A DNA stretch of 64,000 bases from assembly GCA_005880985.1 (NCBI GenBank), contig VBIQ01000008.1, positions 64,003-128,002 of the forward strand. The letters are read 5' to 3'. The DNA comes from Chloroflexota bacterium. GTDB lineage: Bacteria; Chloroflexota; Dormibacteria; Aeolococcales; Aeolococcaceae. Below, one piece after another: positions 21,949 through 59,500 of the stretch. The position numbers and the translations under genes were made by a program. Under the pieces are notes generated by a model, which saw only the letters and a list, made by a program, of their open reading frames with translations, made no database searches and was not told the origin of the DNA. Numbering within the stretch: the stretch's first letter is position 1; every line of letters starts with the position of its first letter.

Positions 21949-22025
21949 GCGCCCATAGCTCAGCCCGGATAGAGCAGCGGACTACGGATCCGCGTGCGGG
22001 GGTTCAAATCCTCCTGGGCGCGCCA
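21949..22025 (+). tRNA. tRNA-Arg (anticodon ACG)
   Basis: Cloverleaf parsed by hand: acceptor GCGCCCA/TGGGCGC, D arm GCTC-AGCCCGGATA-GAGC, anticodon stem GCGGA/TCCGC with loop CUACGGA (U33, ACG at 34-36), 4-nt variable loop, T arm GGGGG-TTCAAAT-CCTCC, discriminator G then genomically encoded CCA; loop identical to known bacterial tRNA-Arg(ACG). Confidence 0.88.
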
Positions 22026-22714: not shown

Positions 22715-24652
22715 TCAGGCTTTGACGGTGGTGCTGGCCGTGCCGGAAGAGCCGTCGTCGTCGCTGATGACCACCGTCACCGTGTAGGTGTGTCCCTGGG
22801 CGTACTGGTGGTTGAGGGTGAAGGTCCGTCCCGTGAGGGCGAGTGGCTGCGGCCCGGCTCCGTCGCCGTAATCGACCGTCGCCGTCCAGGTGTCCGATGC
22901 GGGATCGCTGAACGAGCCCGGCTGTGAGTAGGTCTTCGTCCCCGAGCCGGCGAGGGTTGCCGTGGGAATCGCCTGGACCACCGGCGCGACGTCCACAACC
23001 CGCAACGACGTGCTGCCTCGTCCTGAAGCACTGCCGTCGTCGGTGACGGTGACCGTCACCGCGAACGTTCCCTCGTTGGCGTAGGTGTGGCCCAGCGTGA
23101 ACGATCGCCCCGCGAGCGCCAGCGGGTGGGTTCCGCTGCCATCGCCGTAGTCCACGGTCGCCGTCCACGAGCTGCTGTCGGGATCGCTGAACGAACCGCC
23201 GCCAGAGAAGCTCGTCCCCTCGGACACCTGGGCAGCCGCGTTGACGGTGACCGTCGGCGGCGTGTCGACCCTCGCGGTGGGAGTGGGTGATGGCGAGGCC
23301 GGTCCGGTGCTGGTTGGTTGGGCGGCAGCTGATGCTGCCGGCGTCGCCGTCGCGGTCGGGTTCGGCTGCAGCCGAACCGCCGACGGCACCGGCGAGCCCG
23401 CGGACGCAGCCGGGGTGGATGCGGGCTGAGGGTTGGGCGACGGCGTGGCCGTCGCGCCGGGTATCAAGGATGCGGAGCGACCCGGGGGAACCGGCTTGGT
23501 GTGGGCCGCCGCAGTTGCCGGTGCGCTCGCGGCCGCCGAGTGGTGCGGTCCCAGCACGCCGCCGACCACCAGTCCGGCGGTCGTCGCGGTCACCGCCACG
23601 CCGGAGGCGATCTGGCTGCCGATCTGGCCGAAGCCACCGCCGAGGCGCCCGAGCAGCGGGAATTGACCGAGCCAGGCTCCGAAGCCGGCAGCCCGCCAGA
23701 TCCGGCCAACCGAGATGTTGAGGAAAGCGCGGACCACTGCGGGATCGAAGTGCGTGCCGGAGCACCGAACCAGCTCCCCGCGCGCCGCGGTCGCCCCCAT
23801 CGGCCGGCGGTACGGCCGGGGAGCGGTCATCGTCTCGTAGGAGTCGGCGACCGCGACGATGCGGCCTCCGAGTGAGATCTCCTCACCTCGGAGGCCGCGA
23901 GGGTAGCCGCTGCCGTCGAATCGTTCGTGGTGGTGTTCCACCGCGAACGCCCACTCGCCCAGCCAGGGGAAGATCGGTGCGACCAGCTTCGCGCCCTGCT
24001 CCGGGTGTGCATGCAGGGTCGCCCACTCTTCGTCGTCCGGCGCTGCCGCCTTGGTGAGGATGTCGGCGGGCACGTCGAGCTTGCCGATGTCGTGCAGTAG
24101 GGACGCCCACCGCAGCCGCGCCCGGTCGAGCTCGGGCAGCTGCATCTCCTCGCTGATGAGGTCGGTGAACACCCGCGTCCGTTCCGAGTGCCCGCGGGTC
24201 TGGCGGTCATGGAGCTGCAACGCGGTGACAAGCTCGAGCACTGTTCGCGCCCCGAAGGCATCGTCTTCGAGGCCGTCCTCATGGGCGCGAAGCAGCTTCT
24301 GGCGGAGCTCCTCGGGCCGGCCGACCCGGCGGGCCACGGCGAAGCGCGCCGGCGCGCGGTCGGGGAAGAGCAGGCTGAGGTTGAGCAGCGTCGCCAGAGG
24401 AATCAGCCGCCGGGCCAGGCGCCCGACCCCTATCAGCGCCACCAGCGATCCGGCCACCACCACCGTCCACCACAGCCCGATCCGGAGCGCGCCTTCGGGG
24501 CGGGGAAGGACCTTGATCAGCAGCATCGACGCTGCCAGCGAGGCGGCGACGGGAAGCACGAAGATCGCCGCGCGCAGGAGCCCGCTGAGCAGCGGACGAC
24601 GCCGCCAGAGTTGCCCGGGACGCGGCTCCTCCACCCTCTGCTCGGGGTTCAA
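22715..24652 (-). CDS. Membrane HD-GYP c-di-GMP phosphodiesterase with C-terminal tandem PKD-like domains
   Basis: Two N-terminal TM helices; HD motif (LLHDIGK) and HHERFDGSGYP (HD-GYP signature); a third hydrophobic segment, a Pro/Ala/Thr/Ser linker, then two about 85-aa repeats with a PKD-like core (WTATVDYGDGSG...GHTYANEGTFAVTVTVTDDDG). Confidence 0.85.
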   Translation of the reverse strand: MNPEQRVEEPRPGQLWRRRPLLSGLLRAAIFVLPVAASLAASMLLIKVLPRPEGALRIGLWWTVVVAGSLVALIGVGRLARRLIPLATLLNLSLLFPDRAPARFAVARRVGRPEELRQKLLRAHEDGLEDDAFGARTVLELVTALQLHDRQTRGHSERTRVFTDLISEEMQLPELDRARLRWASLLHDIGKLDVPADILTKAAAPDDEEWATLHAHPEQGAKLVAPIFPWLGEWAFAVEHHHERFDGSGYPRGLRGEEISLGGRIVAVADSYETMTAPRPYRRPMGATAARGELVRCSGTHFDPAVVRAFLNISVGRIWRAAGFGAWLGQFPLLGRLGGGFGQIGSQIASGVAVTATTAGLVVGGVLGPHHSAAASAPATAAAHTKPVPPGRSASLIPGATATPSPNPQPASTPAASAGSPVPSAVRLQPNPTATATPAASAAAQPTSTGPASPSPTPTARVDTPPTVTVNAAAQVSEGTSFSGGGSFSDPDSSSWTATVDYGDGSGTHPLALAGRSFTLGHTYANEGTFAVTVTVTDDGSASGRGSTSLRVVDVAPVVQAIPTATLAGSGTKTYSQPGSFSDPASDTWTATVDYGDGAGPQPLALTGRTFTLNHQYAQGHTYTVTVVISDDDGSSGTASTTVKA

Positions 24653-24963
24653 GCTGCTGACTGCCTCCTCGATGGCGCGGCACGAGATCTCGCCCGCGCG
24701 CGTTCACGGTGATCATGGATGCCAGTAACCCCACCGCCTGAACCGCCGGCGTGACAAGCCCGTAAACGCCCTCCCGGCTCCCGGTTCGGCTTCTGCCCCG
24801 GATCGGTCACGAGGCCTTGACGCGCTCGTCGGGGCGGCCGGTGGGCGGCGACGATTCCCCGCGACGCGAAGGTTCGCGCGTGAGGGACCGCCGGGAACGC
24901 CATGGCAGTGGCCCGGTCCGGCCACCCTGACGTTCGCCTACCCAAGAGGATGGATGAGTTGAG

Positions 24964-25551
24964 GTGAAGGCAGACGGGGGTGGTGCCCTCGCCCGACGCG
25001 CACAGCGCCGGCGCGAGTCCGGCGTCTCCATGGTCGAGTTCGCGATCGTGGCACCGCTCGGACTCCTCCTCATGTTCGGCATCGTGATCTTCGGCCTGCT
25101 GGAGATGAACCAGGTGGCGCTGAGCAACCTCACGAGGGACTCGGTGCGTGCCGGCGGTGTCTGCGGCAGCGCGTTGCGAGCTTCGAACTCCAAGCTTCCC
25201 GATGGGAATGCCTGCTCCTACGCAAACCTCAAAACCTTCGTCACCAACCGCCTCAACGGGCTGCCGAGCGGCTCGGTGGTGAAGCCGCCCGCCGCCGGCT
25301 TCAGCAGCACCAACTGCGACACCACCGACACCAACGCGATCTACTGCGTCTGGGACGCATCGCACAATGCCGTCTCGATCAGCAGCTCCAACCCGCTCGA
25401 CGCCTGCATCAAGGGCGACGAGCTGGAGATCGTCACTGAATTCAGCCAGAGCCTGTACACCCCGTTCGTCGGCAAGGCCTTCGGCGGCAGTGGCTCGAGC
25501 AAGACGCTGAGCGCCGACGCCTACGCAGCGTGCGAGCAGGCACTGTCATGA
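24964..25551 (+). CDS. tadE: TadE-like pilus assembly protein (Flp/Tad pseudopilin), GTG start
   Basis: TadE N-terminal signature (RRRESGVSMVEFAIVAPLGLLLMFGIV) with single TM. Confidence 0.7.
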   Translation: MKADGGGALARRAQRRRESGVSMVEFAIVAPLGLLLMFGIVIFGLLEMNQVALSNLTRDSVRAGGVCGSALRASNSKLPDGNACSYANLKTFVTNRLNGLPSGSVVKPPAAGFSSTNCDTTDTNAIYCVWDASHNAVSISSSNPLDACIKGDELEIVTEFSQSLYTPFVGKAFGGSGSSKTLSADAYAACEQALS

Positions 25552-26090
25552 GCTTTCGCCGCTCGCGATCGAGGAGACGGCGGGGTCAGGCGATGGTTGA
25601 GCTGGCCATCGTCGCCCCGATCCTGGTGCTGCTGGTGACCGGTGGCGCCCAGGTAGCGGTGGTCGTCTATTCCCAGGTATCCGTTGGCACCGCGTCGAGG
25701 GAAGGCGCCCGCACCGCTGTCGACAACCCCAAGGACACGCAGCTGTTCCCGGCAGCAGTCACCAAGGACTGCACCAGCTCCAGCGACACGCGCAAGGCCT
25801 GCGCCGCCGCCTTCAACTCGACGACCCAGACCTTCGGCCTTGTCAACCCCGCGAATTTCACCGTCCACCTGTCGTCGCAGAAGTACCCCTCGGGGACCTC
25901 CACCCCTTCCTGCAACGGGAGCGCAGGCACGGCCGACGATGGGCTCGTCCAGGTGCAGGTCACGTATCAGGCGCCCATCTTCGTCCCATTTGTCAACCGG
26001 TTCTTCGCTGATTCCGGTCAGTCGTATCGCACGGTAAAGAGCACCGTGACGATGCGGGTCAGCCCATGCTCGGCCAATGGTGGTAACTAG
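25548..26090 (+). CDS. TadE/TadF-like pilus assembly protein
   Basis: TadE N-terminal signature (RRRRGQAMVELAIVAPILVLLVTGG); ATG overlaps the upstream stop (ATGA). Confidence 0.7.
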   Translation: MSFRRSRSRRRRGQAMVELAIVAPILVLLVTGGAQVAVVVYSQVSVGTASREGARTAVDNPKDTQLFPAAVTKDCTSSSDTRKACAAAFNSTTQTFGLVNPANFTVHLSSQKYPSGTSTPSCNGSAGTADDGLVQVQVTYQAPIFVPFVNRFFADSGQSYRTVKSTVTMRVSPCSANGGN

Positions 26091-26091
26091 A

Positions 26092-27645
26092 ATGCACAGG
26101 CCTCGTCGCTCCGGCGGGCAGTCCGGCCAGATGCTCGTCGTCACGGCGCTCCTGGCTCTGGTCCTCATCGGCGCCACCGCTCTGGCGGTCGATCTCTCGG
26201 CCAACACCCAGAGCCGGCGCAGTCTCCAGAACATCACCGACTCGGCCGCGCTGGCGGCGGCTCGGAACCTTCCGAGCAACCAGAATCAAGCGATGAAGGA
26301 CGCGCTCGACGACCTGGACCGCAATTCTCCATGGTCCAGCGACCCAACCTGGCTGGCCAACGCCCAGGCTGCGATCACCTGCGCCGGCGGCACCTGCACG
26401 GTCAGCTACCCGGGGCCGGGAAGCTACAGCAACTACACCGTATCGGCCAGCACCCCACCGGCCAGCCCGAAGAACTCCGCCTACAACAGCAGCAGCTACA
26501 TCCAGGTGGACCTGACGCAGAGCACGACCAACGGCTTCGCCGGGGCGGTCGGGTTCAGCTCGTCCACCGAGGTGGGCCACTCGGTGGGCTACAGCGCCGG
26601 TCCGTCGACGTTCTACGACTATGCCTTCTTCTCCAAGGTGCACGCCGGTTCGGGTAACCAGCAGGAGCAGATCTACGGGGACGCGTACCTCGGTAATGGG
26701 TACTCGCCGCAGAGCTCAGGCAAGGCGGGCTTCTGCGCCTTCCAGCTGACCGGCAAAGAGACCGCCGCGACAGATACCGATAACGACCTGAACGATCCGA
26801 TGCCTGACAGCGGCGGCGACGTCGATGATCAGGGCCACCTGACCTTCGCCGGGCCGCCGAGTGTCGGGCCAAACCCCAGCTATGATGTGGGACCGCCCTG
26901 TGCGGGCAGCGGCGGGCTGAGCGCGCAGTCCGGCCCGCCGAGCGCGAGCAACTGTCCGCCGGCTTCAGCTCCGCAGTCATACACAAGCGGCGGCACCACC
27001 TACTCGGTCTGCGTTCAGGCGGCGCCTCCCCTTCCGAATATCATCGCGCCCACCGTCACCACGGCGAGCGGCACTCCTGCCCTCTGCGGCGCCACCATCT
27101 CCAACGGATACGCTAAGGGCGTATACGCGGTGGGCGCCAATTGCACGGTGACGCTCGACTTCTCGTCCGGCAACATCGACTGCGTCTCCCTCGTGCTGGG
27201 CGCGGGGGCATCGGTCAGCATCACCAACAAGAAGGGACAGAACTACATCAGCGCTTTTGGCTTTGACCCCACGACCTCCGCCAAGGCTGTTGCCGCCATC
27301 AACGCTTTGCCAGCGGTTGCCCCGGTCGCTGCGTGTCTCGGTGCGAGTGGGACGGAGCCGGGGCCGAACAAGAGCGTCATCTGGTCACCCAACACCTCGG
27401 CCAGCCCCATGCCGACGGCGTTGAGCAATGCCGCGACAGGCTGCTGCAGTGACACCCTCTTCCTCGGCACCGTCTATCTGCCCGGCCAGCAGGTGAGCTT
27501 CGCCACCAACCAGGCGATGGAAGACGTCGGCATGGTGTACGTGGGGGACTGGGACGTCCAGAGCGGAAACCATCCCAACCCCATGGTGCAGTTCGATGGG
27601 GCGGTGGCGGCACCCCTGCAGACCATCCTTCGGTTGGTCGAGTAG
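26092..27645 (+). CDS. tadG: TadG-like protein (putative Flp pilus-assembly TadE/G-like domain), alternative start 26077
   Basis: N-terminal TM then the TadG-like segment (LVLIGATALAVDLSANTQSRRSLQNITDSAALAAAR); Ser/Gly/Pro-rich, Cys-containing extracellular region. Confidence 0.7.
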   Translation: MHRPRRSGGQSGQMLVVTALLALVLIGATALAVDLSANTQSRRSLQNITDSAALAAARNLPSNQNQAMKDALDDLDRNSPWSSDPTWLANAQAAITCAGGTCTVSYPGPGSYSNYTVSASTPPASPKNSAYNSSSYIQVDLTQSTTNGFAGAVGFSSSTEVGHSVGYSAGPSTFYDYAFFSKVHAGSGNQQEQIYGDAYLGNGYSPQSSGKAGFCAFQLTGKETAATDTDNDLNDPMPDSGGDVDDQGHLTFAGPPSVGPNPSYDVGPPCAGSGGLSAQSGPPSASNCPPASAPQSYTSGGTTYSVCVQAAPPLPNIIAPTVTTASGTPALCGATISNGYAKGVYAVGANCTVTLDFSSGNIDCVSLVLGAGASVSITNKKGQNYISAFGFDPTTSAKAVAAINALPAVAPVAACLGASGTEPGPNKSVIWSPNTSASPMPTALSNAATGCCSDTLFLGTVYLPGQQVSFATNQAMEDVGMVYVGDWDVQSGNHPNPMVQFDGAVAAPLQTILRLVE

Positions 27646-27706
27646 GCAGGGAGCGGTCGGCACCAACCGGCCGCCACTTCGCCCGGCGTCGCGTACGCTG
27701 CTCACC

Positions 27707-28747
27707 ATGGACGAACCCGCCGCAGCCCCAGCCTTCCGGCTGGCGGCGTTGCGCCCGCCGGTGGCGCTGGCGCTGAGCGGCGGCGGCGCGCGGGGCGCCG
27801 CCCAGGCGGGCGTGGCCATCGAGCTGATCGCGGCCGGGCTGCGGCCGGACCTGATCATCGGCACCTCGATCGGTGCCTGGAACGGCGCCTGGCTGGCCGC
27901 CCACCCGGACGACGTGGAGTCGCTGGCGACCTGGTGGCTGGACGCCGAGGTGCGGCGCATCTTCCGCGGCATGTGGCTCGGCTATGCCGGCGCCCTCGCC
28001 TGGCGTCGCAGCGCCGCGCTGTCGGCGGGGCGGGTCGATCACCTGCTGGGGCGCGGTCTCGGCGACATGACCTTCGAGGAGCTGCCGGTCCGGCTGGTGA
28101 TCGGCGCCGCCGACCTGCTCACCGCCGACCTCGTCTACTTCGACAGCGGCCCGGTCGCTCCCGCGGTGCGCGCCTCCTCGGCGATCCCCACGGTGCTGCC
28201 TCCGGTGGCGCTGGGAGACCGCCTGCTCGTCGACGGCGGCATCCTCGACAACTTCGGCGTGCACGAGGCGGTCCGCCGCGGCGCTCGCAGCATCATCCTC
28301 GTCGACGTCAGCACCTACGATCTGGTCCAGCCACCGGTCGGTCTGGGCGAGATCTTCGACCGTTCCACGGTGATCGCGCAGGTGCACCAGCGGCGCCGAT
28401 CGGCGGCGGCGGCGGCAGGCGCCGGCGTGCCCATGCACCTCATCGAGGCGAGCAACGGGGAGTCGCCGCTCGACTTCCAGCATGCGGCGGCTGCGCTGGA
28501 GCACGGCCGTGCCGTGGCCCGTGCCTGGCTGGCCGGCGAGGCTCTACCACCGCTCCGTCCGGCGCCGCCGGCCGAGGAGCGGGTCCGGCTTCTGCAGCGG
28601 TGGCGGGTCCTCGAGGAGCAGCTGGTCGCCCGGATGTCCGCCATGCCCCTCTGGCGGCGAGTGGCACAGTATGGGAACGGCTCCGACCCGGCGGTCCCGG
28701 CCGCCGACCTCGAGCCCATCGACCCGGTGGGGGACGCCGCCGGCTGA
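27707..28747 (+). CDS. Patatin-like phospholipase
   Basis: Oxyanion GGGARG and nucleophile elbow GTSIGA (GxSxG), DGG catalytic Asp motif (LVDGGILDN). Confidence 0.8.
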   Translation: MDEPAAAPAFRLAALRPPVALALSGGGARGAAQAGVAIELIAAGLRPDLIIGTSIGAWNGAWLAAHPDDVESLATWWLDAEVRRIFRGMWLGYAGALAWRRSAALSAGRVDHLLGRGLGDMTFEELPVRLVIGAADLLTADLVYFDSGPVAPAVRASSAIPTVLPPVALGDRLLVDGGILDNFGVHEAVRRGARSIILVDVSTYDLVQPPVGLGEIFDRSTVIAQVHQRRRSAAAAAGAGVPMHLIEASNGESPLDFQHAAAALEHGRAVARAWLAGEALPPLRPAPPAEERVRLLQRWRVLEEQLVARMSAMPLWRRVAQYGNGSDPAVPAADLEPIDPVGDAAG

Positions 28748-47470: not shown

Positions 47471-47537
47471 GTGATCGTCGCGCTCCGTTGCGCGACCGCG
47501 ACCGGGCCCGAACGGGGCGACCCGTAGGCTCGCCAGG

Positions 47538-49340
47538 ATGGGTGTGTCCGTCGATCTCGAGGGGGGCGGCGGCCGCCTGCCCGCGCCCGGCGGCGCCGCG
47601 GTTCGGACGGCGCTGCGCGAGCTCTCCGCCAGCCGGTACCCGGAGCGTCCCGAGGCGGTTGCCGGTCGCGAGCGCAGCGCCTCTCCCCTGGCCTTCGCCC
47701 TGATGCTTGCCGCCGCGGTCAGCGCGTCGGTCGTCCTCGGCCGCCCCCATCTCTCCGCCGAGGTCTGGCCGCGGCTGGTGCCGGATGCGGTCGCCGTGAT
47801 GGTGGCCACCGTTCTGCTGATGCCGCGAACCGTGCAGCTGCGGGTTCGATTCTGGCTCTGCGGCATCACCGGCACGATCGCCGCCACCGTCGGTGTCTAC
47901 CTGGCCGTGGTGCCGCTGCGCGGCTCGGGCAACGTGACCTCCGATGTGGTGGTGCTCGGCGTCGCCACCGGTATGATCGCCATCCTGCTGACCAAGTGGC
48001 TCGTCGAGGAGCTGCGCTTCCGGGTTGCCCAGCTGGCGACGCTGGCGGGAACCGACCAGCTGACCGGACTGGCCAACCGGCGGGCCTGGGACGACGAGCT
48101 GCAGCGCGAGCTGCTGCGCGCCCGGCGTGACACCTCTCCACTGTGCATCGCCGTCCTCGACCTCGACCACTTCAAGGCGTTCAACGACATGCGCGGACAC
48201 CCGGAGGGCGACCGCCTGCTCGCCGCCACCGCCGCCGCCTGGCTGGAGGTGCTGCGAGGCGGCGACTTCCTGGCCCGCTACGGGGGCGAGGAGTTCGCCG
48301 CGGTCTTCCGGCGCTGCACCCTCGACGACGCGCTGATCGCCGTCGAGCGCCTGCGGATGGCGGTGCCCGACGAGCAGACCTGCTCGGTGGGCCTCGCCCG
48401 ATGGGATGGTGAGGAGACCGCTGACCAGCTGGTGGCCCGCGCCGACGAAGCGCTGTACATGGCGAAGGTCGGCGGCCGCAACCGCGTCAAGTGTGCGGAG
48501 TGGGTCACCGAGACCGGCGGCCGTCTCGGGGTCACCAACTGGGCTGCCCTCGTGCCCAAGATCATCGCGGACGAGGGACTCGTCTCCGCCTACCAGCCGA
48601 TCGTCGACCTCGGCAGCGGCACCGTGGTGGCCCACGAGGCATTGGCGCGGCCCGGCGTGGAGTACGACGGCAGTGTCGAGGGACTCTTCACCGCCGCCCA
48701 CAAGATGGGCATGGGCTGCGACCTCGACTGGCTCTGCCGGCGCGCTGCGCTGGTGGGCTCGGAGTGGATCCCGCAGGGCGTGCCCCTGTTCATCAACGTC
48801 AACGTCTCGACGCTGCTCGACACCAACCTGCGGGTCGACCACATGCTGCTGCTGCTGGAGGGCTACAGCGGCCGGAGCCCGGAGGAGGTGGTGCTGGAGA
48901 TCACCGAGCGCGAGGTGTTCAGCGACCTGGTGCGGTTGCGCCTGGTGGTCGGGCTGTACCGGCAGCGCGGTTTCCGCTTCGCCATCGACGACGTCGGTGA
49001 GGGCCACTCGACCCTCGAGGTGCTTGCCGCGGTCACCCCCGAATACATCAAGATCGCCCGTCCCATGGTTGTCGACGCGCTCAGCGTCGGACCGCGGGCC
49101 GCGGTCGCGGCGGTGGTCGCCTTCGCTCAGGCGAGCGGTTCGACCGTCATCGCCGAGGGAATCGAGTCGGAGCTGACCGCCAGCTTCATGCGGCGCATGG
49201 GCGTCCATCTGGGCCAGGGATTCCACTTCGGCCGTCCGCTGGTACCGGCCGGCACGGCGCTGAACCTGTCGGTGCCGCTGCTGCGTCCGCCCAGCGGCGG
49301 AAGCACAGGCCTGCTAGCCGGCGGCGCCCAGGTGGCCTGA
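47538..49340 (+). CDS. Membrane-anchored GGDEF-EAL protein (c-di-GMP synthesis/hydrolysis)
   Basis: Five N-terminal TM helices; GGDEF active site (RYGGEEF) with Asp/His motifs; EAL domain (VAHEALARP...DDVGEGHSTL). Confidence 0.9.
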   Translation: MGVSVDLEGGGGRLPAPGGAAVRTALRELSASRYPERPEAVAGRERSASPLAFALMLAAAVSASVVLGRPHLSAEVWPRLVPDAVAVMVATVLLMPRTVQLRVRFWLCGITGTIAATVGVYLAVVPLRGSGNVTSDVVVLGVATGMIAILLTKWLVEELRFRVAQLATLAGTDQLTGLANRRAWDDELQRELLRARRDTSPLCIAVLDLDHFKAFNDMRGHPEGDRLLAATAAAWLEVLRGGDFLARYGGEEFAAVFRRCTLDDALIAVERLRMAVPDEQTCSVGLARWDGEETADQLVARADEALYMAKVGGRNRVKCAEWVTETGGRLGVTNWAALVPKIIADEGLVSAYQPIVDLGSGTVVAHEALARPGVEYDGSVEGLFTAAHKMGMGCDLDWLCRRAALVGSEWIPQGVPLFINVNVSTLLDTNLRVDHMLLLLEGYSGRSPEEVVLEITEREVFSDLVRLRLVVGLYRQRGFRFAIDDVGEGHSTLEVLAAVTPEYIKIARPMVVDALSVGPRAAVAAVVAFAQASGSTVIAEGIESELTASFMRRMGVHLGQGFHFGRPLVPAGTALNLSVPLLRPPSGGSTGLLAGGAQVA

Positions 49341-51890: not shown

Positions 51891-54713
51891 TCAATGGCCC
51901 CGGCGTTCGAGACGGACCTGGCCGGAACGCCGGGCCACGGACGCTGCCAGCTGCACCCGCGAGCTGACGCCGAGCTTGGTGAAGACGTGGGAGAGGTGGG
52001 TCTCCACGGTGCGGCGGGAGACGAAGAGGCGCGCTCCGATCTCGGGGTTGGTGAGCCCCTGGGCGGCGAGCCGTACCACCTCGCGCTCGGCGGGGGTCAG
52101 GCTCTCCCAGCCGTGCGCGGCGCGGGCATGGCGGCCGCGCGGCCCCGGATGGGCGCCCAGCTCTCGCAGCATCGCCGCCGCCTCCGCCTCGTCGCGACGT
52201 GCCCCGATGCGTCCGAAGATCGACCGCGCCTCCTCGGCCATGGCGACGGCTTCGTCGCGCCGGTCCCTGGCCGCGAGCACCGTGGCGGCGTCGCGACAGG
52301 TGGCCGCCAGGTCCACCCGGCGCGGGGTGCTCAGGTACGCGTCCACCGCGCGTTGCATCAGTGACGGGTCGCGCTCGGCCAGGCCGCGGCAGCGCAGCGC
52401 CGCCGCCCGGGCGCTCGGGATCATGGCGCGGGCCGCCGTGCGGTCGACGGCGGTCAGCACCCGCCCGACCAGGGCCCGGTCCGCGGTCGACCCCGAGAGC
52501 CGGATCAGCGGCGGCCCCAGCATCAGCTGGACCGAGAGGGCCTCCAGCGCCGTGGCGCACAACCACCCCCTCTGCACGATCTCCAGGGCCCGGTCGCGCT
52601 CGCCTCGCGCCTCCGCGAGCGCAGCCTGGGCCATCGCCAGCCACTCCCACCCGAATTCACGGGGCTCGTCGGTGCCGAAGGCGCGCTCGGCGTGGCGGAG
52701 GTGGGCGGTGGCGCCGTCGAGCTCGTCGCGGTGGACGGCGATCAGTGCGAGCCGGGCGAGGATGTGGGGCACCGACCAGCGCGTTTCCACCTGCTCAGCG
52801 ACGAGCAGGCCGGCCTCGAGCTCGGCGACGGCATCGTCCCACGCCCCCACGAGGAAGTCGGCGTGGGCCTGGACCGGGTCGTGGAGGGCGAGATGCCAGC
52901 TTCGCTCGCCCTGGTTTGCGGTTCGACGGCTCGCCGCCAGCGCCTGGCGGGCCTCGTCGATGCGGCCCGCCTCCGCCAGCAGCCATCCGTGCCAGACGTG
53001 CGGGGTGCGGCCGAGCGTCTCGTCCCCGCCCGCCTGGGCGAGGGCCACGGCCCGGGCGGAGAGCTCGACCGCCTTGGCCGTGTAGCCGCGGCCGGCGGCG
53101 GTGATCGACAGCGCCAGCAGGCCGGTGGACACCGCCCGGGCGTCGCGGACCCCCGCCCCGATGAGCACCGCCGTCTCGGCGGCGCGAGAGGCGCCGGGCA
53201 GATCGCAGCCCAGGGCAAGCACCAGAGCGGCCTGGGCCAGCAGCTGGGCCCGTCGCGGCTCCGGGGTCTCGTCGCGCGCCGCGATCAGCGAGAACTGCTC
53301 TGCCGCCTCCTGCCAGCGCCCCAGGAAGGCCAGGGCGCGGGCCAGCACCAGCCGGGCCCTTTCCTCGGGGCCGCCCGGTGCCGCTCCCTCCAGCAGGGCG
53401 CGCGCCGCCAGCTCGCCCTCGCGGGGCCTGCCCGCCCAGACCAGGACGTCGGCCTCGTCGAGCCGCAGCGCCCGCTGGTCGCGGTAGCCGGTGCCGGCCA
53501 GCCGTGAGGCGCTGGCGATCAGCTCGCGGGCGGCCGCGGGTGCCTGGGCCGACGCCTCAAGTGCCGCCTGGCGCAGCCAGCCGACGGTCTCCTCGTCACC
53601 CGGCTCGGCTCCCAAGGCCAGCTGGGTCGCAACCCGCCAGGCCGGGGCGTGGCGGGCAGCCAGGGCACGCCCCGCTTGGAGGTGGAGGGCGGTGCGCAAC
53701 GGGGGTGGCTGCTCCAGGTAGACGAGCTCGCGGACCACCGGGTGCCGGAAGGCATAGCGTTCGCCCTTCTCGACGATCAGGCCGAGACGGGCCGCCTCCT
53801 CGAGCGCCGGGGCCAGCTCGACGGCAGGCGTGGCGAGCACCGCCGCCAGGTCATCGACGGGGAAGCTCGAACCCAGCAGCGAGGCCGCCTTGAGAACCGC
53901 GAGATGCTGGCGATCGAGGGTTCGCAGCCGCCGGCGCATCAGCCCGCGAAGGCGTCGAGGCAGCGTGGGCCTGCCCATCAGCTCGGCAACCCCGTCGGCG
54001 ACCTCGACGGCACCGTCGTCGCGCAGGCCGTTGACCAGCTCGGTGACCAGCAGCGGGTCGCCGCCGGCGCCCAAAACCTGTTCCAGCAGGCGAGGACCCG
54101 GCTCGGTGCCGACCATCACCCGCACCAGGTCCACCACCGCGGCCGCGTCGAGTGGCGCCAGCTCGATGATCGTCGCCCCCGCGCTGCCGGCGGCGGCCGC
54201 GAACGCGGCCAGCTCCGGGGACGGCGCCGAGGCTCGGAAGGCAGCGAGGATGAGAAGCCGCCTGGCCTCCGCCCGTCTCCCCAAGCGGTCCAGCGCCAGC
54301 AGGGTGCCGGGGTCGGCCCGGTCGAGGTCGTCGAGGGCGATGGCCACCGCGGCGCGACCCGCCAGGCGGTCGACGTGAGCGATCAGGCCGTTGATGAGCC
54401 GGGCGCGCCCGGCCTCCGACCCCGGGGACCGATCGGCGAGCCCGGCGAGGGTCGGGTCGCCGGCTGCGTCCGCGACGCCCAGGGCGTCGAGCAGCGCCCC
54501 ACAGGGGCGGCCCGCCTCGGCCACGCCGGCGCCGGCGGAGAAGACCTGGCAGCCGCATCGCCTGGCCTCGGCGACGCCCTCCTCGAGCAGGCGGGTCTTG
54601 CCCACGCCGGGCTCTCCCTCGATGAGCACCATCTGGCCGCGCCCGGTGCCGGCGTCGGCGACCGCGCCGCGGAGAATGGCCATCTCGCGGTCACGGCCCA
54701 GCAAGGCCTGCAT
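51891..54713 (-). CDS. Large ATP-binding LuxR-family transcriptional regulator (AAA+/STAND-like NTPase, TPR-like middle region, C-terminal LuxR HTH)
   Basis: Walker A (IEGEPGVGKTRLLEE); long helical repeat region; C-terminal LuxR HTH (LTPAEREVVRLAAQGLTNPEIGARLFVSRRTVETHLSHVFTKLGV). Confidence 0.9.
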   Translation of the reverse strand: MQALLGRDREMAILRGAVADAGTGRGQMVLIEGEPGVGKTRLLEEGVAEARRCGCQVFSAGAGVAEAGRPCGALLDALGVADAAGDPTLAGLADRSPGSEAGRARLINGLIAHVDRLAGRAAVAIALDDLDRADPGTLLALDRLGRRAEARRLLILAAFRASAPSPELAAFAAAAGSAGATIIELAPLDAAAVVDLVRVMVGTEPGPRLLEQVLGAGGDPLLVTELVNGLRDDGAVEVADGVAELMGRPTLPRRLRGLMRRRLRTLDRQHLAVLKAASLLGSSFPVDDLAAVLATPAVELAPALEEAARLGLIVEKGERYAFRHPVVRELVYLEQPPPLRTALHLQAGRALAARHAPAWRVATQLALGAEPGDEETVGWLRQAALEASAQAPAAARELIASASRLAGTGYRDQRALRLDEADVLVWAGRPREGELAARALLEGAAPGGPEERARLVLARALAFLGRWQEAAEQFSLIAARDETPEPRRAQLLAQAALVLALGCDLPGASRAAETAVLIGAGVRDARAVSTGLLALSITAAGRGYTAKAVELSARAVALAQAGGDETLGRTPHVWHGWLLAEAGRIDEARQALAASRRTANQGERSWHLALHDPVQAHADFLVGAWDDAVAELEAGLLVAEQVETRWSVPHILARLALIAVHRDELDGATAHLRHAERAFGTDEPREFGWEWLAMAQAALAEARGERDRALEIVQRGWLCATALEALSVQLMLGPPLIRLSGSTADRALVGRVLTAVDRTAARAMIPSARAAALRCRGLAERDPSLMQRAVDAYLSTPRRVDLAATCRDAATVLAARDRRDEAVAMAEEARSIFGRIGARRDEAEAAAMLRELGAHPGPRGRHARAAHGWESLTPAEREVVRLAAQGLTNPEIGARLFVSRRTVETHLSHVFTKLGVSSRVQLAASVARRSGQVRLERRGH

Positions 54714-54950
54714 GCGAACCCCTTCCGTGGCGGTCCAAGCGATCCCGTCGAGCCGCCTGGGATCCGCCCAGCATATCCGGTAGGTCCCTGATGTCTGAAA
54801 CGGTGAGAAGCGCGACCATCAACGTCGAGCGACGCACCGAGGCGGGGTGGCACTCGAGGCGGGGCAGCCAGGCCCCCGGGCGGGGGGGGAATCGACGCCC
54901 CGGGAGGGGTCTGTTCGCCCGCCTATGTCGACGGCGGGCGATGTGGCAGA

Positions 54951-56496: not shown

Positions 56497-56548
56497 CGTT
56501 ACCGACGAGTTGGTGGAGTTTGGCTTCTGAGGTAGTACATTCCCCCCG

Positions 56549-59500
56549 TTGACCGTCCGGCGGCCGCTGGGGGGAGCGCCGCCGACACTGGGCGCCGCCC
56601 ACGAGGGGACCATGCCGACTGCTACGTCGCCGCCAGACACCTTGGACGCCCGGGTACTCCTGGGCGTCCTCACCAAGCTCAAGAAGGGCGACTTCACCGC
56701 CCGCATGCCGGAGGACTGGACCGGCATCGCGGGCAAGGTCGCCGACACCCTCAACGAAGTCATCGAGACCAACCAGCGCCTCGGCCGAGAGCTCGATCGG
56801 GTGGGGCGGACGGTCGGCAAGCAGGGCAAGACCTCGCAGCGGCTCAACCTCGGTGAGGTGGGCGGCGGATGGGCCACCGCCGTCGACACGGTCAACGAGC
56901 TGATCGAGGACCTGGTCCGGCCCACCAGCGACATGGCCCGGGTCATCGGCGCGGTCGCCAACGGCGACCTCAGCCAGACCATCCCACTCGAGGTCGACGG
57001 GCGGCCGCTCGAGGGACAGTTCCTGCGCACCGCGAAGACGGTCAACACCATGGTGTCGCAGCTGGACTCCTTCGCGGCCGAGGTCACCCGGGTGGCGGGC
57101 GAGGTGGGCACCGAGGGGAAGCTGGGTGGCCAGGCGCGCGTCCGCGGCGTCGGCGGCGTCTGGAAGGACCTGACCGACAACGTCAACTCGATGGCCGGCA
57201 ACCTCACCGCCCAGGTGCGCAACATCGCCGAGGTCACCACCGCGGTGGCGCGAGGCGATCTCTCCAAGAAGATCACCGTCGACGTGCGCGGTGAGATCCT
57301 CGAGCTGAAGAACACCATCAACGTGATGGTCGACCAGCTCAACGGCTTCGCCTCGGAGGTCACCCGCGTGGCCCGCGAGGTCGGCAGCGAAGGCAAGCTC
57401 GGCGGCCAGGCCAAGGTCGAGGGCGTGGGCGGCGTCTGGAAGGACCTGACCGACAACGTCAACATGATGGCCGGCAACCTGACCGGACAGGTGCGCAACA
57501 TCGCCGAGGTCACCACCGCGGTGGCCAACGGCGACCTCTCCAAGAAGATCACCGTCGACGTGCGTGGTGAGATCCTCGAGCTGAAGAACACCGTCAACGT
57601 CATGGTCGACCAGCTCAACGCCTTCGCCTCCGAGGTCACCCGCGTCGCCCGCGAGGTCGGCAGCGAGGGCAAGCTGGGCGGCCAGGCGGACGTCCGTGGC
57701 GTTGCCGGCGTCTGGAAGGACCTGACCGACAACGTCAACATGATGGCCGGCAACCTGACCGGCCAGGTGCGCAACATCGCCGAGGTCACCACCGCGGTGG
57801 CCAACGGCGACCTCTCCAAGAAGATCACCGTCGACGTGCGTGGTGAGATCCTCGAGCTCAAGGACACCATCAACGTGATGGTCGACCAGCTCAACGACTT
57901 CGCCTCCGAGGTCACCCGCGTGGCCCGCGAGGTCGGCAGCGAGGGCAAGCTGGGCGGACAGGCGGAGGTGCGCGGCGTCGGCGGCGTCTGGAAGGACCTC
58001 ACCGACAACGTCAACTTCATGGCGTCCAACCTCACCGGCCAGGTGCGCAACATCGCCGATGTGACCACCGCGGTGGCCAACGGCGACCTGTCCAAGAAGA
58101 TCACCGTCGACGTGCGCGGCGAGATCCTCGAGCTGAAGAACACCATCAACACCATGCTCGACCAGCTCAACGCCTTCGCCTCCGAGGTCACCCGCGTCGC
58201 CCGCGAGGTCGGCAGCGAGGGCAAGCTGGGCGGACAGGCGGAAGTCCGCGGCGTCGGCGGCGTCTGGAAGGACCTCACCGACAACGTCAACTTCATGGCG
58301 TCCAACCTCACCGGCCAGGTGCGCAACATCGCCGAGGTCACCACCGCGGTGGCCAACGGCGACCTCTCCAAGAAGATCACCGTCGACGTGCGTGGCGAGA
58401 TCCTCGAGCTCAAGGACACCATCAACGTGATGGTCGACCAGCTCAACGACTTCGCCTCGGAGGTCACCCGCGTGGCCCGCGAGGTCGGCAGCGAGGGCAA
58501 CCTGGGCGGACAGGCGGAGGTCCGCGGCGTCGGCGGCGTCTGGAAGGACCTCACCGACAACGTCAACTTCATGGCGTCCAACCTCACCGGCCAGGTGCGC
58601 AACATCGCCGACGTGACCACCGCGGTGGCCAACGGCGACCTCTCCAAGAAGATCACCGTCGACGTGCGCGGTGAGATCCTCGAGCTCAAGAACACCATCA
58701 ACGTGATGGTCGATCAACTCAACGCCTTCGCCTCCGAGGTCACCCGCGTCGCCCGCGAGGTCGGCACCGACGGCAAGCTGGGCGGCCAGGCCCAGGTGCG
58801 CGGCGTCGGCGGCGTCTGGAAGGACCTGACCGACAACGTCAACTTCATGGCATCGAACCTGACGGGCCAGGTGCGCAACATCGCCGAGGTGACCACCGCG
58901 GTGGCCAACGGCGACCTGTCCAAGAAGATCACCGTCGATGTGCGCGGTGAGCTGCTGGAGCTCAAGAACACCATCAACGTGATGGTCGATCAGCTCAACA
59001 ACTTCGCCTCGGAGGTGACCCGCGTCGCCCGCGAGGTCGGCAGCGACGGCAAGCTGGGCGGCCAGGCCCAGGTGCGCGGCGTGGCCGGCGTCTGGAAGGA
59101 CCTGACCGACAACGTCAACATGATGGCCGGCAACCTCACCGACCAGGTGCGAGGCATCGCCCGGGTCGTGACCGCGGTGGCCGACGGCGATCTGAAGCGC
59201 AAGCTCATCGTCGAGGCCAAGGGCGAGGTCGCCGCGCTCGCCGACACCATCAACAACATGACCGACACCCTGGCCACCTTCGCCGATCAGGTGACCACGG
59301 TGGCCCGCGAGGTCGGTGTTGAAGGCAAGCTGGGCGGTCAGGCGAACGTGCCCGGCGCCGCCGGCACCTGGCGCGACCTCACCGACAACGTCAACCAGCT
59401 GGCGGCCAATCTCACCACCCAGGTGCGGGCGATCGCCGACGTCGCCATCGCCGTCACCGAAGGCGACCTCACCCGGTCGATCGCGGTCGTGGCGAGCGGC

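What the first reader, a model, noticed from the sequence alone, without database searches (positions are those of the whole stretch)
22715..27645. HD-GYP phosphodiesterase with extracytoplasmic PKD tandem, divergent from an orphan tadE-tadE-tadG minor-pilin trio
The HD-GYP protein has two N-terminal TM helices, a cytoplasmic catalytic domain with intact HHExxDGxGYP, a third hydrophobic segment, a PATS-rich linker and two PKD-like beta domains predicted to be outside the cell. That topology is unusual for HD-GYP enzymes. It shares about 310 bp of divergent promoter region with three Tad pseudopilin genes that have no flp pilin, cpaF/tadA ATPase or tadBC within the window. This suggests c-di-GMP-linked control of a Tad-like surface structure, or a surface-contact sensor.
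Basis: partly seen in the sequence, partly recalled or inferred. Interest (0 to 1): 0.6.

Follow-up and report, generated by a model that had tools for sequence, protein, structure and literature searches.

The report
Surface-tailed HD-GYP enzyme beside Tad pilus-tip genes
A soil bacterium of the uncultured phylum Dormibacterota carries a membrane-bound signal-degrading enzyme that probably displays two Ig-like domains outside the cell, next to three genes for the tip of an adhesive pilus; both are real, the enzyme's build is unusual but common in this phylum, and the two are probably neighbours by accident.

Summary
On the minus strand, 22715-24652 encodes a 645-aa protein. It has two N-terminal TM helices, an intact HD-GYP domain (HHERFDGSGYP), a third hydrophobic segment, a 95-aa Pro/Ala/Ser/Thr linker and two confidently modelled PKD/Ig domains. 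It lies 311 bp from a divergent TadE-TadE-TadG operon (24964-27645). No Tad core gene or Flp-like pilin is in the 64-kb window.

- The window comes from a Dormibacterota MAG. Dormibacterota are monoderm.
- The HD-GYP belongs to a large family, about 600 clusters at 50% identity. Members share the same post-catalytic junction and carry variable adhesin-type tails: PKD, Big_3_5, up to 11 Big_9/cadherin repeats, or a 12-Cys repeat. This argues that the tail is outside the cell.
- A published HD-GYP census places HD-GYP C-terminal to its sensor domains. This family has the reverse order.
- The trio is an orthologous minor-pilin module found across Dormibacterota. In one genome it lies directly after rcpC-tadB-tadC. 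Its TadG has a ComZ-like beta-solenoid. It resembles the dispersed Myxococcus KilLMN "Tip" clusters.
- The HD-GYP/trio adjacency recurs only in one 86%-identical relative. It is absent from about 20 other trio loci and about 30 other family loci.

A functional link is therefore possible but unsupported.

The parts
22715..24652 (-). Gene for a 645-aa membrane-anchored HD-GYP phosphodiesterase with a C-terminal PKD tandem
   Evidence: ORF. Pfam HD_5, HD, PKD_4 and PKD. The identical protein P0001 is annotated in a Dormibacterota/'Chloroflexi' MAG. Gene callers chose the same start.
24509..24571 (-). TM1 (residues about 28-48)
   Evidence: Kyte-Doolittle 2.36. GES trapezoid 1.83. AF2 helix 20-48. 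An Arg cluster before it suggests the N-terminus is inside the cell.
24422..24484 (-). TM2 (residues about 57-77), followed by a conserved Arg-rich juxtamembrane segment
   Evidence: Kyte-Doolittle 2.13. GES 1.87. AF2 helix 55-95. Residues 77-113 are nearly invariant in the family.
23669..24247 (-). HD-GYP catalytic domain (residues about 136-328): H155, H187-D188, K191, H216, H241-H242-E243, D246, G247, G249-Y250-P251, D270
   Evidence: Pfam HD_5 E 1.3e-36. Of the residues named, all except D246 are invariant in 74 sequences; D246 is conserved at 90% or more. High pLDDT. Foldseek matches DvhD, PmGH and PA4781. phmmer matches V-cGAP3 at 5e-33 and PmGH at 5e-26.
23549..23611 (-). Third hydrophobic segment (residues 348-368, IASGVAVTATTAGLVVGGVLG), the probable TM3
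   Evidence: Kyte-Doolittle 1.68 and Hessa sum +3.1. GES 1.76, and at least 1.0 in 120/120 relatives. Eisenberg mean hydrophobicity 0.63. AF2 confidence is low.
23264..23548 (-). Pro/Ala/Ser/Thr-rich linker of 95 residues (369-463)
   Evidence: 75% Pro/Ala/Thr/Ser, 4 Lys+Arg, 1 Asp+Glu. pLDDT below 50. The first 80 tail residues are 81% Pro/Ser/Thr/Ala/Gly across the family.
22994..23263 (-). PKD/Ig-like domain 1 (residues 464-553)
   Evidence: Pfam PKD_4 and PKD. AF2 beta-sandwich with pLDDT above 92. Foldseek matches Ig-like adhesin modules.
22718..22957 (-). PKD/Ig-like domain 2 (residues 566-645)
   Evidence: Second PKD_4 stretch. AF2. Internal repeat of domain 1.
24653..24963 (.). 311-bp divergent intergenic region
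   Evidence: Sequence. About 85-90% identical to the spacer in L007. No Rfam match. No sigma-70-type consensus or terminator.
24964..25551 (+). TadE-like minor pilin 1, with leader MKADGGGALARRAQRRRESG|VSMVEF
   Evidence: PF07811 E 2.2e-9. G/xxxxEF signal, conserved in orthologs. First position of the conserved trio.
25530..26090 (+). TadE-like minor pilin 2 (TadF position), with leader ...RSRRRRG|QAMVEL
   Evidence: PF07811 E 3e-11. Prepilin signal. Overlaps the TadE1 stop codon. Conserved second position.
26077..27645 (+). TadG-like large minor pilin: N-terminal pilin helix plus a beta-solenoid domain with conserved Cys residues
   Evidence: PF13400 E 3e-10. About 70 full-length orthologs, all from Dormibacterota or unnamed sources. 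Nine Cys positions conserved at 90% or more, one of them (C312) invariant. AF2 pLDDT 85.6. Top Foldseek hit is ComZ 6qvi at 4e-5.

Best explanation
Two separate, individually well-defined systems lie side by side in this lineage.

(1) The 645-aa protein is a catalytically competent HD-GYP cyclic-dinucleotide phosphodiesterase, most likely acting on c-di-GMP.
- A TM1-TM2 hairpin holds it at the membrane on the N-terminal side.
- A third TM helix probably holds it on the C-terminal side.
- A 95-residue Pro/Ala/Ser/Thr stalk then carries two PKD/Ig domains out through the wall of a monoderm cell.
- It is one paralog of a large, Dormibacterota-expanded family. The catalytic core and junction are constant and the ectodomain is swapped: PKD, Big_3_5, Big_9/cadherin arrays or a Cys-rich repeat.
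- The inferred mechanism is outside-in signalling. Binding or load on the ectodomain passes through TM3, next to TM1 and TM2, and changes hydrolysis in the cytoplasmic domain. This is a sensor with the sensor placed C-terminal to the output.

(2) TadE-TadE-TadG encodes the three minor pilins that prime and cap a Tad (type IVc) pilus.
- The 522-aa TadG carries a ComZ-like beta-solenoid, probably the exposed tip module.
- The machinery genes lie elsewhere in the genome.

(3) The adjacency is a recent, genus-level rearrangement. It is not evidence of a dedicated regulatory pair.

Shown: domains, motifs, folds, family size, synteny statistics. Inferred: topology, substrate, signalling direction, tip location.
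For: Catalytic competence
- Pfam hits and the invariant metal and GYP residues.
- Structural and sequence matches to solved HD-GYP enzymes.

Topology
- Three hydrophobic segments.
- The junction and third segment are conserved in 120/120 relatives.
- Tails are Pro/Ser/Thr-rich, charge-poor and biased to even Cys counts, 50 even against 4 odd.
- Tails in relatives are PKD, Big_3_5, up to 11 Big_9/cadherin repeats, or a 12-Cys repeat.
- Dormibacterota are monoderm.

Family size
- 598 clusters match the 77-aa junction alone.

Trio
- Pfam hits and prepilin signals.
- The TadE1-TadE2-TadG order is conserved in about 22 distinct Dormibacterota loci.
- In L172 the orthologous trio follows rcpC-tadB-tadC directly. 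In L011 it lies beside rcpC-tadB-tadC.
- TadB orthologs are widespread in the phylum.
- The TadG model resembles the tip pilin ComZ.
- Dispersed TadE/F/G-like 'Tip' clusters are known in Myxococcus (PMC12075869).

Adjacency is not general
- An HD-GYP neighbour occurs only in L007, the 86%-identical relative.
- No TadE or TadG lies near about 30 other family loci or near L004-L006.
- In 55%-identical trio loci, the slot upstream of the trio holds a second minor-pilin cluster instead.
Against: - AF2 does not model the third hydrophobic segment with confidence: pLDDT is 35-45. Its Hessa insertion energy is marginal at +3.1 kcal/mol.
- A preceding Trp-rich segment reaches the 'putative' TM level here (GES 0.66). 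It reaches 'certain' in 54 of 120 relatives on the permissive GES scale. A two-helix hairpin, which would leave the tail in the cytoplasm, is therefore not excluded.
- The HD-GYP/trio/patatin block is kept intact between the window and L007. The left synteny breakpoint falls exactly at the HD-GYP stop codon. This is compatible with selection for linkage.
- Some paralogs also lie beside giant adhesin genes (L103, L004, L006). This hints that members of the family may be paired with surface structures.
- The rest of this genome could not be searched, so the presence of cpaF, flp or tadV is not shown.
Confidence: 0.6

Rival explanations
1. The HD-GYP-PKD protein and the trio form a functional pair. 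The PKD ectodomain senses surface contact or the pilus tip, and the enzyme lowers c-di-GMP to control production or dynamics of the Tad structure through the shared divergent control region.
For: - The genes are divergent with a 311-bp spacer.
- The block is conserved in L007, with the synteny breakpoint exactly at the HD-GYP 3' end.
- Other paralogs lie next to large adhesin genes: a 13xMBG_2 protein of 2523 aa directly upstream on the same strand in L103, and Big_3_5 giants in L004 and L006.
- Links between c-di-GMP and Tad minor pilins are known in Caulobacter (abstract of PMC12607857).
Against: - The adjacency is seen in only one close relative, at 86% identity.
- About 20 other distinct trio loci have no HD-GYP. 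GGDEF or EAL genes occur within 10 kb in roughly a third of them. A very rough background from this one window, two such genes in 64 kb, would predict a similar share, so no enrichment is evident.
- None of about 30 other family loci has TadE or TadG nearby.
- No riboswitch or recognisable regulatory element is in the spacer.
- No c-di-GMP effector gene is in the block.
Confidence: 0.2
2. The C-terminal region is cytoplasmic. Both post-catalytic hydrophobic segments cross the membrane as a hairpin, or neither does. The PKD domains would then be an intracellular interaction module rather than a surface sensor.
For: - AF2 gives no confident TM3.
- The insertion energy is marginal.
- Segment A scores as a TM on the GES scale in many relatives.
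Against: - Segment A is only about 15 apolar residues between Arg residues. It contains Gln and Pro, and its Eisenberg mean hydrophobicity is 0.34, against 0.63 for segment B.
- Segment A continues the last helix of the catalytic domain.
- Family tails are PKD, Big_3_5, arrays of 11 Big_9/cadherin domains, and disulfide-type Cys repeats joined by PT linkers. From general knowledge, these are features of exported proteins.
- The charge distribution fits the positive-inside rule for an outside tail.
Confidence: 0.15
3. The enzyme is a 3'3'-cGAMP (or other cyclic dinucleotide) phosphodiesterase like Vibrio V-cGAPs. It might work with the nearby patatin-like phospholipase as part of a CBASS-like circuit.
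For: - The best PDB sequence match is V-cGAP3 5z7c at 5e-33.
- A patatin gene lies 3 kb away in the same conserved block. It has weak hits to CBASS phospholipase models (NCBIfam 1e-6; PADLOC 4e-11).
Against: - The patatin scores far below the CapV cut-off (28 bits against 200). It matches RssA-type patatins better.
- No CD-NTase or SMODS domain was found in the window.
- GGDEF and EAL genes are in the window and in related loci.
- The Lys residue and GYP motif are those of c-di-GMP enzymes.
- V-cGAPs also hydrolyse c-di-GMP (general knowledge).
Confidence: 0.08

Closest known systems
HD-GYP c-di-GMP phosphodiesterases (RpfG, PmGH 4MCW, PA4781 4R8Z, DvhD 9RBZ; V-cGAP3 5Z7C)
   Same: Same catalytic domain. 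All metal-binding His/Asp residues, the HHExxDGxGYP motif and the conserved Lys are present. Structural and sequence matches are significant.
   Different: Known and catalogued architectures put sensor domains (REC, GAF, PAS, dCache, PBPb, CHASE2, MASE9-12) N-terminal to HD-GYP. Here the catalytic domain sits between a sensor-less TM hairpin and a C-terminal TM, stalk and ectodomain.
Type II (N-in/C-out) sensors with PT-linked C-terminal ectodomains, such as Clostridium thermocellum RsgI anti-sigma factors (from general knowledge)
   Same: A cytoplasmic effector part, one TM helix, a Pro/Thr-rich linker and an extracellular binding module at the C-terminus, in a monoderm cell.
   Different: RsgI outputs through sigma-factor release, not nucleotide hydrolysis. 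There is no sequence relationship. The extra N-terminal TM hairpin is specific to this family.
Myxococcus xanthus KilL/KilM/KilN 'Tip' minor-pilin clusters of the Kil Tad-like pilus (PMC12075869)
   Same: Three-gene TadE/TadF/TadG-like clusters. Some are encoded away from the machinery genes, and several clusters occur per genome. The large TadG-like subunit carries a variable C-terminal module. Dormibacterota loci likewise hold one to three such clusters.
   Different: The organism is a monoderm Dormibacterota and not a predator. The TadG C-terminal domain here is a Cys-containing beta-solenoid with no detectable sequence similarity to KilN. Formation of a heterotrimer was not tested.
ComZ, the competence-pilus tip pilin of Thermus thermophilus (6QVI)
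   Same: A pilin N-terminal helix and head with a large beta-solenoid domain. It is the top Foldseek hit for the TadG model (E 4e-5, prob 0.87).
   Different: ComZ belongs to a type IVa competence pilus. TM-scores are low (0.17-0.18) and identity is 9%. The resemblance is in architecture only, not in family membership.
Canonical tad loci (flp-tadV-rcpCAB-tadZABCDEFG; the Mycobacterium Rv3654c-Rv3660c type in monoderms)
   Same: The same TadE and Tad Pfam families. Weak NCBIfam hits to the Rv3655c and Rv3654c families. In L172 the order is rcpC-tadB-tadC-tadE-tadE-tadG.
   Different: In this window the three minor-pilin genes stand alone. In Dormibacterota even rcpC-tadB-tadC has no adjacent ATPase. 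In other phyla, by contrast, a CpaF-type ATPase lies within 10 kb in 11 of the fetched TadG-like loci.

Membership tests
HD-GYP phosphodiesterase | HD-superfamily domain with the extended HD-GYP sequence model | tested here: met
   Pfam HD_5 126 bits (cut-off 27.2) and HD 70 bits (cut-off 22).
HD-GYP phosphodiesterase | Metal ligands (H, HD, H, HH, D) and the HHExxDGxGYP motif intact, plus the c-di-GMP-binding Lys | tested here: met
   H155, H187-D188, K191, H216, H241-H242-E243, G247, G249-Y250-P251 and D270 are invariant in 74 aligned sequences; D246 is conserved at 90% or more. The motif is at residue 241.
HD-GYP phosphodiesterase | Hydrolysis of c-di-GMP (or cGAMP) | not testable with these tools
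   Needs an enzyme assay. The nearest solved relatives include both c-di-GMP and cGAMP enzymes.
PKD / Ig-like domain | Match to PKD profiles and a beta-sandwich fold | tested here: met
   PKD_4 69 bits in 2 stretches and PKD 30 bits, both above cut-off. AF2 strands with pLDDT above 92. Foldseek matches Ig-like adhesin modules and the PKD-bearing SORCS2 ectodomain.
Extracytoplasmic sensor topology (C-terminus outside) | An odd number of membrane spans between the catalytic domain and the tail | tested here: inconclusive
   Segment 348-368 passes the Kyte-Doolittle, GES and Eisenberg criteria. AF2 is not confident there, and a weaker segment precedes it. Indirect evidence from tail domain types and composition favours an outside tail.
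TadE/TadF minor pilins (type IVc) | TadE N-terminal domain, and a class III signal with Gly at -1 and Glu at +5 followed by a hydrophobic helix | tested here: met
   PF07811 at 37.7 and 43.7 bits (cut-off 22.9). G|VSMVEF and G|QAMVEL signals, conserved in orthologs.
TadE/TadF minor pilins (type IVc) | Genetic association with Tad machinery (tadA/cpaF, tadB, tadC, flp, tadV) | tested here: not met
   None is in the 64-kb window. The feature is met for orthologs in L172 and L011, which lie beside rcpC-tadB-tadC. The rest of this genome could not be searched.
TadG-like large minor pilin | Tad (PF13400) N-terminal segment plus a large C-terminal module | tested here: met
   PF13400 40.7 bits (cut-off 22.3). 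AF2 shows helix 16-62, a head and a beta-rich domain.
Kil-type 'Tip' heterotrimer | The three minor pilins assemble into a trimer through their N-terminal helices | not tested
   No multimer prediction tool was available. The analogy rests on gene content and order.
CBASS (considered because of the patatin gene and the V-cGAP-like HD-GYP) | A CD-NTase cyclase adjacent to the effector | tested here: not met
   No such domain is in the window. The patatin scores 28 bits against a cut-off of 200 for CapV. The PADLOC hit is weak.
c-di-GMP riboswitch upstream of pilin genes | A GEMM-I or GEMM-II match in the 5' region of the trio | tested here: not met
   There is no Rfam match at the gathering score in the window. 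The only match at E up to 5 in 24550-25100 is a chance-level hit to an unrelated family.

The most novel reading that the evidence does not exclude
The HD-GYP protein represents an undescribed class of 'adhesin-tethered' phosphodiesterases. A cell-surface Ig, cadherin or Cys-repeat ectodomain is joined through one TM helix to the C-terminal end of the catalytic domain, and a TM hairpin pins the N-terminal end. Ligand binding or mechanical pull on the surface module would then be converted directly into c-di-GMP hydrolysis. Paralogs with different ectodomains would each report on a different surface partner. For this paralog the partner would be the neighbouring Tad tip complex. For others it would be the giant adhesins encoded next to them.
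Probability: 0.25. Interest if true: 0.75.

Novelty: new variant of a known kind. Interest (0 to 1): 0.45.

Why it matters
Signal enzymes that make or break c-di-GMP are almost always described with the sensor ahead of the catalytic domain. For HD-GYP proteins, no member with an extracytoplasmic sensor has been characterised experimentally.

A family of several hundred clusters carries adhesin-type modules behind the catalytic domain. It would be a new wiring for outside-in second-messenger control, and a candidate for direct sensing of surfaces or matrix in a phylum with no cultured representative.

The trio extends the recent idea of interchangeable Tad pilus tips to a monoderm soil lineage. 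It also shows that Dormibacterota scatter their Tad genes.

The proposed link between the two would matter if real, but present evidence does not support it.

Tried and rejected
- AF2 on the full protein, to settle the third TM. The region 330-452 came back with pLDDT below 50, so it decides nothing.
- A TopPred-style GES scan. It is too permissive for this Ala/Gly/Thr-rich proteome, giving 4-7 'certain' TMs per protein, so it cannot separate segments A and B.
- Contexts of the nearest HD-GYP homologs (P0003, P0004, P0007). They are 50%-identical paralogs with unrelated surroundings.
- Riboswitch, Rfam, promoter and terminator scans of the spacer found nothing.
- The CBASS reading of the patatin plus HD-GYP pair was rejected.
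- The NCBIfam hit to 'PamR pilus system RbmA-like protein' is 31.9 bits against a cut-off of 300, over 44 residues of PKD1. It is generic Ig/PKD similarity, not membership.
- A search for Flp-like short pilins in the window and in 30 Dormibacterota loci found none.
- A Walker-A scan for CpaF found it only in loci from other phyla.
- The genome-contig collection does not hold this species, so the rest of the genome could not be searched.

Full report
ORIGIN AND GENE CONTENT

The window has about 70% G+C. The HD-GYP protein is identical to P0001, annotated in a MAG labelled "Chloroflexi bacterium". Nearly all named relatives are Candidatus Dormibacteraeota/Dormibacteria. This phylum is treated as part of a monoderm clade with Chloroflexi and CPR (10.1101/2021.05.31.446380).

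Pfam scans and called genes cover essentially the whole window.
- Around the finding lie housekeeping genes for the pentose-phosphate pathway, tryptophan degradation and a molybdopterin oxidoreductase.
- Further away lie a GGDEF-EAL protein and a very large poly-HAMP hybrid kinase.
- No T2SSE/CpaF, T2SSF/TadBC, RcpC, TadZ, Flp or A24 peptidase domain is present.
- A six-frame scan for G/xxxxE[YFL] followed by a hydrophobic stretch finds only TadE1 and TadE2.
- A Walker-A scan for CpaF-type ATPases is negative in the window.

THE HD-GYP PROTEIN (22715-24652, MINUS STRAND)

Sequence features
- Pfam gives HD_5 (residues 144-306, E 1e-36), HD, and PKD_4 in two stretches.
- The motif HHERFDGSGYP starts at residue 241.
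- In an alignment of 74 family members, the metal ligands, the Lys that contacts c-di-GMP in PmGH, and the Gly, Tyr and Pro of the GYP motif are invariant; the motif Asp (D246) is conserved at 90% or more.

Structure
- AF2 (pLDDT 76) models two long N-terminal helices (20-48 and 55-95) and a confident catalytic domain.
- It models two beta-sandwich domains at 464-553 and 566-645 with pLDDT above 92.
- Residues 330-452 are below pLDDT 50.
- By Foldseek, the catalytic part matches DvhD, PmGH and PA4781. The tail matches Ig-like adhesin modules.
- By sequence, the closest solved relative is V-cGAP3, then PmGH.

TOPOLOGY

The third hydrophobic segment (348-368)
- It passes the classical criteria: Kyte-Doolittle 1.68, GES 1.76 and Eisenberg mean hydrophobicity 0.63.
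- It is rich in Gly, Ala and Thr, and its Hessa sum is +3.1 kcal/mol.
- AF2 does not model it with confidence.

The preceding segment (about 316-334)
- It is Trp-rich and continues the last catalytic helix.
- It is conserved in the family.
- Its Eisenberg mean hydrophobicity is only 0.34 here.
- On the permissive GES scale it scores as a TM in 54 of 120 relatives.

Direct prediction is therefore inconclusive. Indirect evidence favours a tail outside the cell.
- Across 120 relatives, the 20 residues after the third segment carry a median of zero Lys or Arg. Two Lys or Arg (median) precede the junction.
- Tails are 81% Pro/Ser/Thr/Ala/Gly at their start. They hold 1% Lys and 0.6% Glu, against 3.5% and 7.2% in the catalytic part.
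- Cys is 1.7% in tails and 0.2% in the catalytic part. Cys counts are even in 50 tails and odd in 4, although many of these tails share one homologous domain.
- Every recognisable tail module is of the cell-surface kind. Examples are single or double PKD, Big_3_5, arrays of up to 11 Big_9/cadherin-like domains in a 1666-aa member, and a 12-residue C-x3-C-x7 repeat with 12 Cys.

I put the probability of an extracytoplasmic tail at about 0.75.

HOW UNUSUAL IS IT?

[quoted passage not shown] A term search of its text found extracytoplasmic sensor domains named only as N-terminal partners of HD-GYP.

The protein is nonetheless not a singleton.
- The 77-residue junction alone (residues 296-372) finds 598 clusters at E up to 1e-3 among 1.84 billion representatives.
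- The 120 best full-length relatives all score below E 1e-134.
- Two of them report the same 179,809-bp longest contig. That suggests, but does not show, several paralogs per genome.

THE TRIO (24964-27645, PLUS STRAND)

Sequence features
- Two PF07811 proteins and one PF13400 protein are encoded, with overlapping stop and start codons.
- The leaders are Arg-rich and end in Gly, followed by xxxxE[FL] and a hydrophobic helix.
- This pattern holds in orthologs. It shows that the automatic gene starts, which begin at MVEF or MVEL, cut off the prepilin leaders.

Distribution
- TadG has about 70 full-length orthologs.
- In a scan of one genome per species, full-length matches come almost only from Dormibacterota or from MAGs labelled Chloroflexi/Chloroflexota or simply 'bacterium'. 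One is labelled Candidatus Angelobacter and one uncultured Actinomycetes. Matches from clearly different phyla cover only the N-terminal Tad segment.
- Local annotation of the fetched loci, about 22 of them distinct, shows a conserved TadE1-TadE2-TadG order.

TadG structure
- The AF2 model (pLDDT 85.6, pTM 0.72) has a pilin helix, a small head and a large beta-rich domain.
- Its best PDB match is ComZ, the competence-pilus pilin of Thermus. Next come beta-solenoid ice-binding proteins and Caldicellulosiruptor tapirins.
- Nine Cys positions are conserved at 90% or more, one of them invariant.

IS THE TRIO ORPHAN?

It is orphan in the window.
- In L172 the orthologous trio (47% identity for TadG) follows rcpC-tadB-tadC on the same strand.
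- In L011 it lies divergent from a TadE-Tad(902 aa)-TadE-rcpC-tadB-tadC cluster.
- In L171, rcpC-tadB-tadC stands alone.
- TadB orthologs are common in the phylum.
- None of the Dormibacterota loci fetched has a CpaF-type ATPase within 10 kb. Eleven TadG-like loci from other phyla do.

Dormibacterota thus appear to scatter their Tad genes, and a stand-alone trio is the usual state.

Several loci carry two or three TadE/TadG clusters (L007, L008, L010, L020, L021). This matches the published Myxococcus case. There, four dispersed kilLMN clusters encode interchangeable heterotrimeric tips, and the authors propose that TadEFG minor pilins form such tips generally (PMC12075869).

THE PROPOSED LINK

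In L007 the HD-GYP ortholog (86% identity) is again divergent from the trio.
- DNA homology between the window and L007 begins exactly at the HD-GYP stop codon and runs through the trio.
- It resumes at the patatin gene, after a 2.25-kb segment present only in L007. That segment holds a second Tad-TadE-TadE cluster.

The block is therefore conserved at about genus level. Beyond that the link disappears.
- No other trio locus has an HD-GYP neighbour.
- The 55%-identical trio loci have a second minor-pilin cluster in the equivalent position.
- About 30 metagenomic loci of the HD-GYP family, and three paralog contexts, have no TadE or TadG.
- GGDEF or EAL genes lie within 10 kb of roughly a third of the trio loci.
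- As a very rough guide, this window alone has two c-di-GMP genes in 64 kb. That density would predict a similar share, so no enrichment is evident.
- The spacer has no Rfam match and no consensus promoter or terminator.

Some paralogs do lie beside very large adhesin genes.
- In L103, a 2523-aa protein with 13 MBG_2 domains ends 35 bp before the HD-GYP gene, on the same strand.
- L004 and L006 have Big_3_5 giants nearby.

This keeps open a broader idea, that members of the family are paired with surface structures. I could not test it statistically.

VERDICT

- The regulatory link to the Tad genes is not supported beyond one close relative.
- The HD-GYP is a new variant of a known kind: a sensor phosphodiesterase with the sensor on the C-terminal, extracellular side, in a large uncharacterised family.
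- The trio is a new member of a known kind: dispersed Tad tip or minor-pilin clusters.

Noticed in passing
window 27707-28747 (+): A patatin-like phospholipase lies directly after TadG, 62 bp downstream, and is kept in the same place in L007. It has weak hits to CBASS phospholipase models, but no cyclase is nearby. It matches RssA-type patatins better.
   Followed up: partly
L007 11527-13782, against window 27648-27671: The 86%-identical relative has a 2.25-kb segment holding a second minor-pilin cluster (Tad 351 aa, TadE, TadE) between TadG and the patatin gene. The window has only 24 bp there. This is an insertion or deletion of a whole 'tip' cluster.
   Followed up: partly
proteins P0041, P0048, P0065, P0094 and about 25 others (tails of HD-GYP paralogs): About 30 of the 120 closest paralogs end in a 12-Cys domain built of 12-residue repeats (C-T-S-[YH]-C-x-G-N-N-N-x-x, that is C-x3-C-x7). 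No Pfam domain is recorded for these tails. From general knowledge, the pattern recalls disulfide-laddered beta-solenoids such as the beetle antifreeze protein. Several of these tails end in a conserved ...TTTSAMV[MI]RPLY motif.
   Followed up: no
proteins P0269, P0323, P0336, P0287; L107 1506-6878: Some family members are very long, up to 1790 aa. P0269 has 11 Big_9/cadherin-like repeats behind the HD-GYP domain, so it is in effect an adhesin stalk fused to a phosphodiesterase.
   Followed up: partly
L103 185-7756 (+) and 7791-9713 (+); L004 865-6410; L006 3202-7584: Giant surface proteins lie next to HD-GYP family members. They are 2523 aa with 13 MBG_2 domains, and 1356, 492 and 1460 aa with Big_3_5 domains. 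In L103 the adhesin gene is on the same strand with a 35-bp gap.
   Followed up: partly
window 56531-62320 (+), 62227-63174 (+), 63090-63998 (+): A 1929-aa hybrid histidine kinase has about ten HAMP/HAMP_2 repeats, then GAF, HisKA, HATPase and three receiver domains. It is followed by CheR and a receiver-PAS protein.
   Followed up: no
window 47475-49340 (+): A GGDEF-EAL protein of 621 aa. It shows that the organism has c-di-GMP turnover genes besides the HD-GYP.
   Followed up: no
window 24964-25029 and 25530-25592; L001 called genes: Automatic gene calls start TadE1 and TadE2 at the Met of MVEF or MVEL. This removes the Arg-rich prepilin leader and the Gly at -1. The upstream GTG starts restore a class III signal that is conserved in all orthologs.
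   Followed up: yes
L171 9095-11904; L172 9186-14781; L011 1152-3814: In Dormibacterota, rcpC-tadB-tadC forms a unit near the nuo operon, His_Phos_1 and FAD_binding_4 genes. No CpaF/TadA ATPase or Flp gene is adjacent, so the Tad genes of this phylum are split over several loci.
   Followed up: partly
window 51891-54818 (-): A 975-aa AAA_16 plus LuxR/GerE regulator of the large ATP-binding LuxR type. The opposite strand carries long spurious high-GC ORFs.
   Followed up: no
window 21949-22022 (+): A tRNA gene (Rfam tRNA model, 60 bits) lies between the transketolase region and the methyltransferase gene, near the point where synteny with L007 ends.
   Followed up: no
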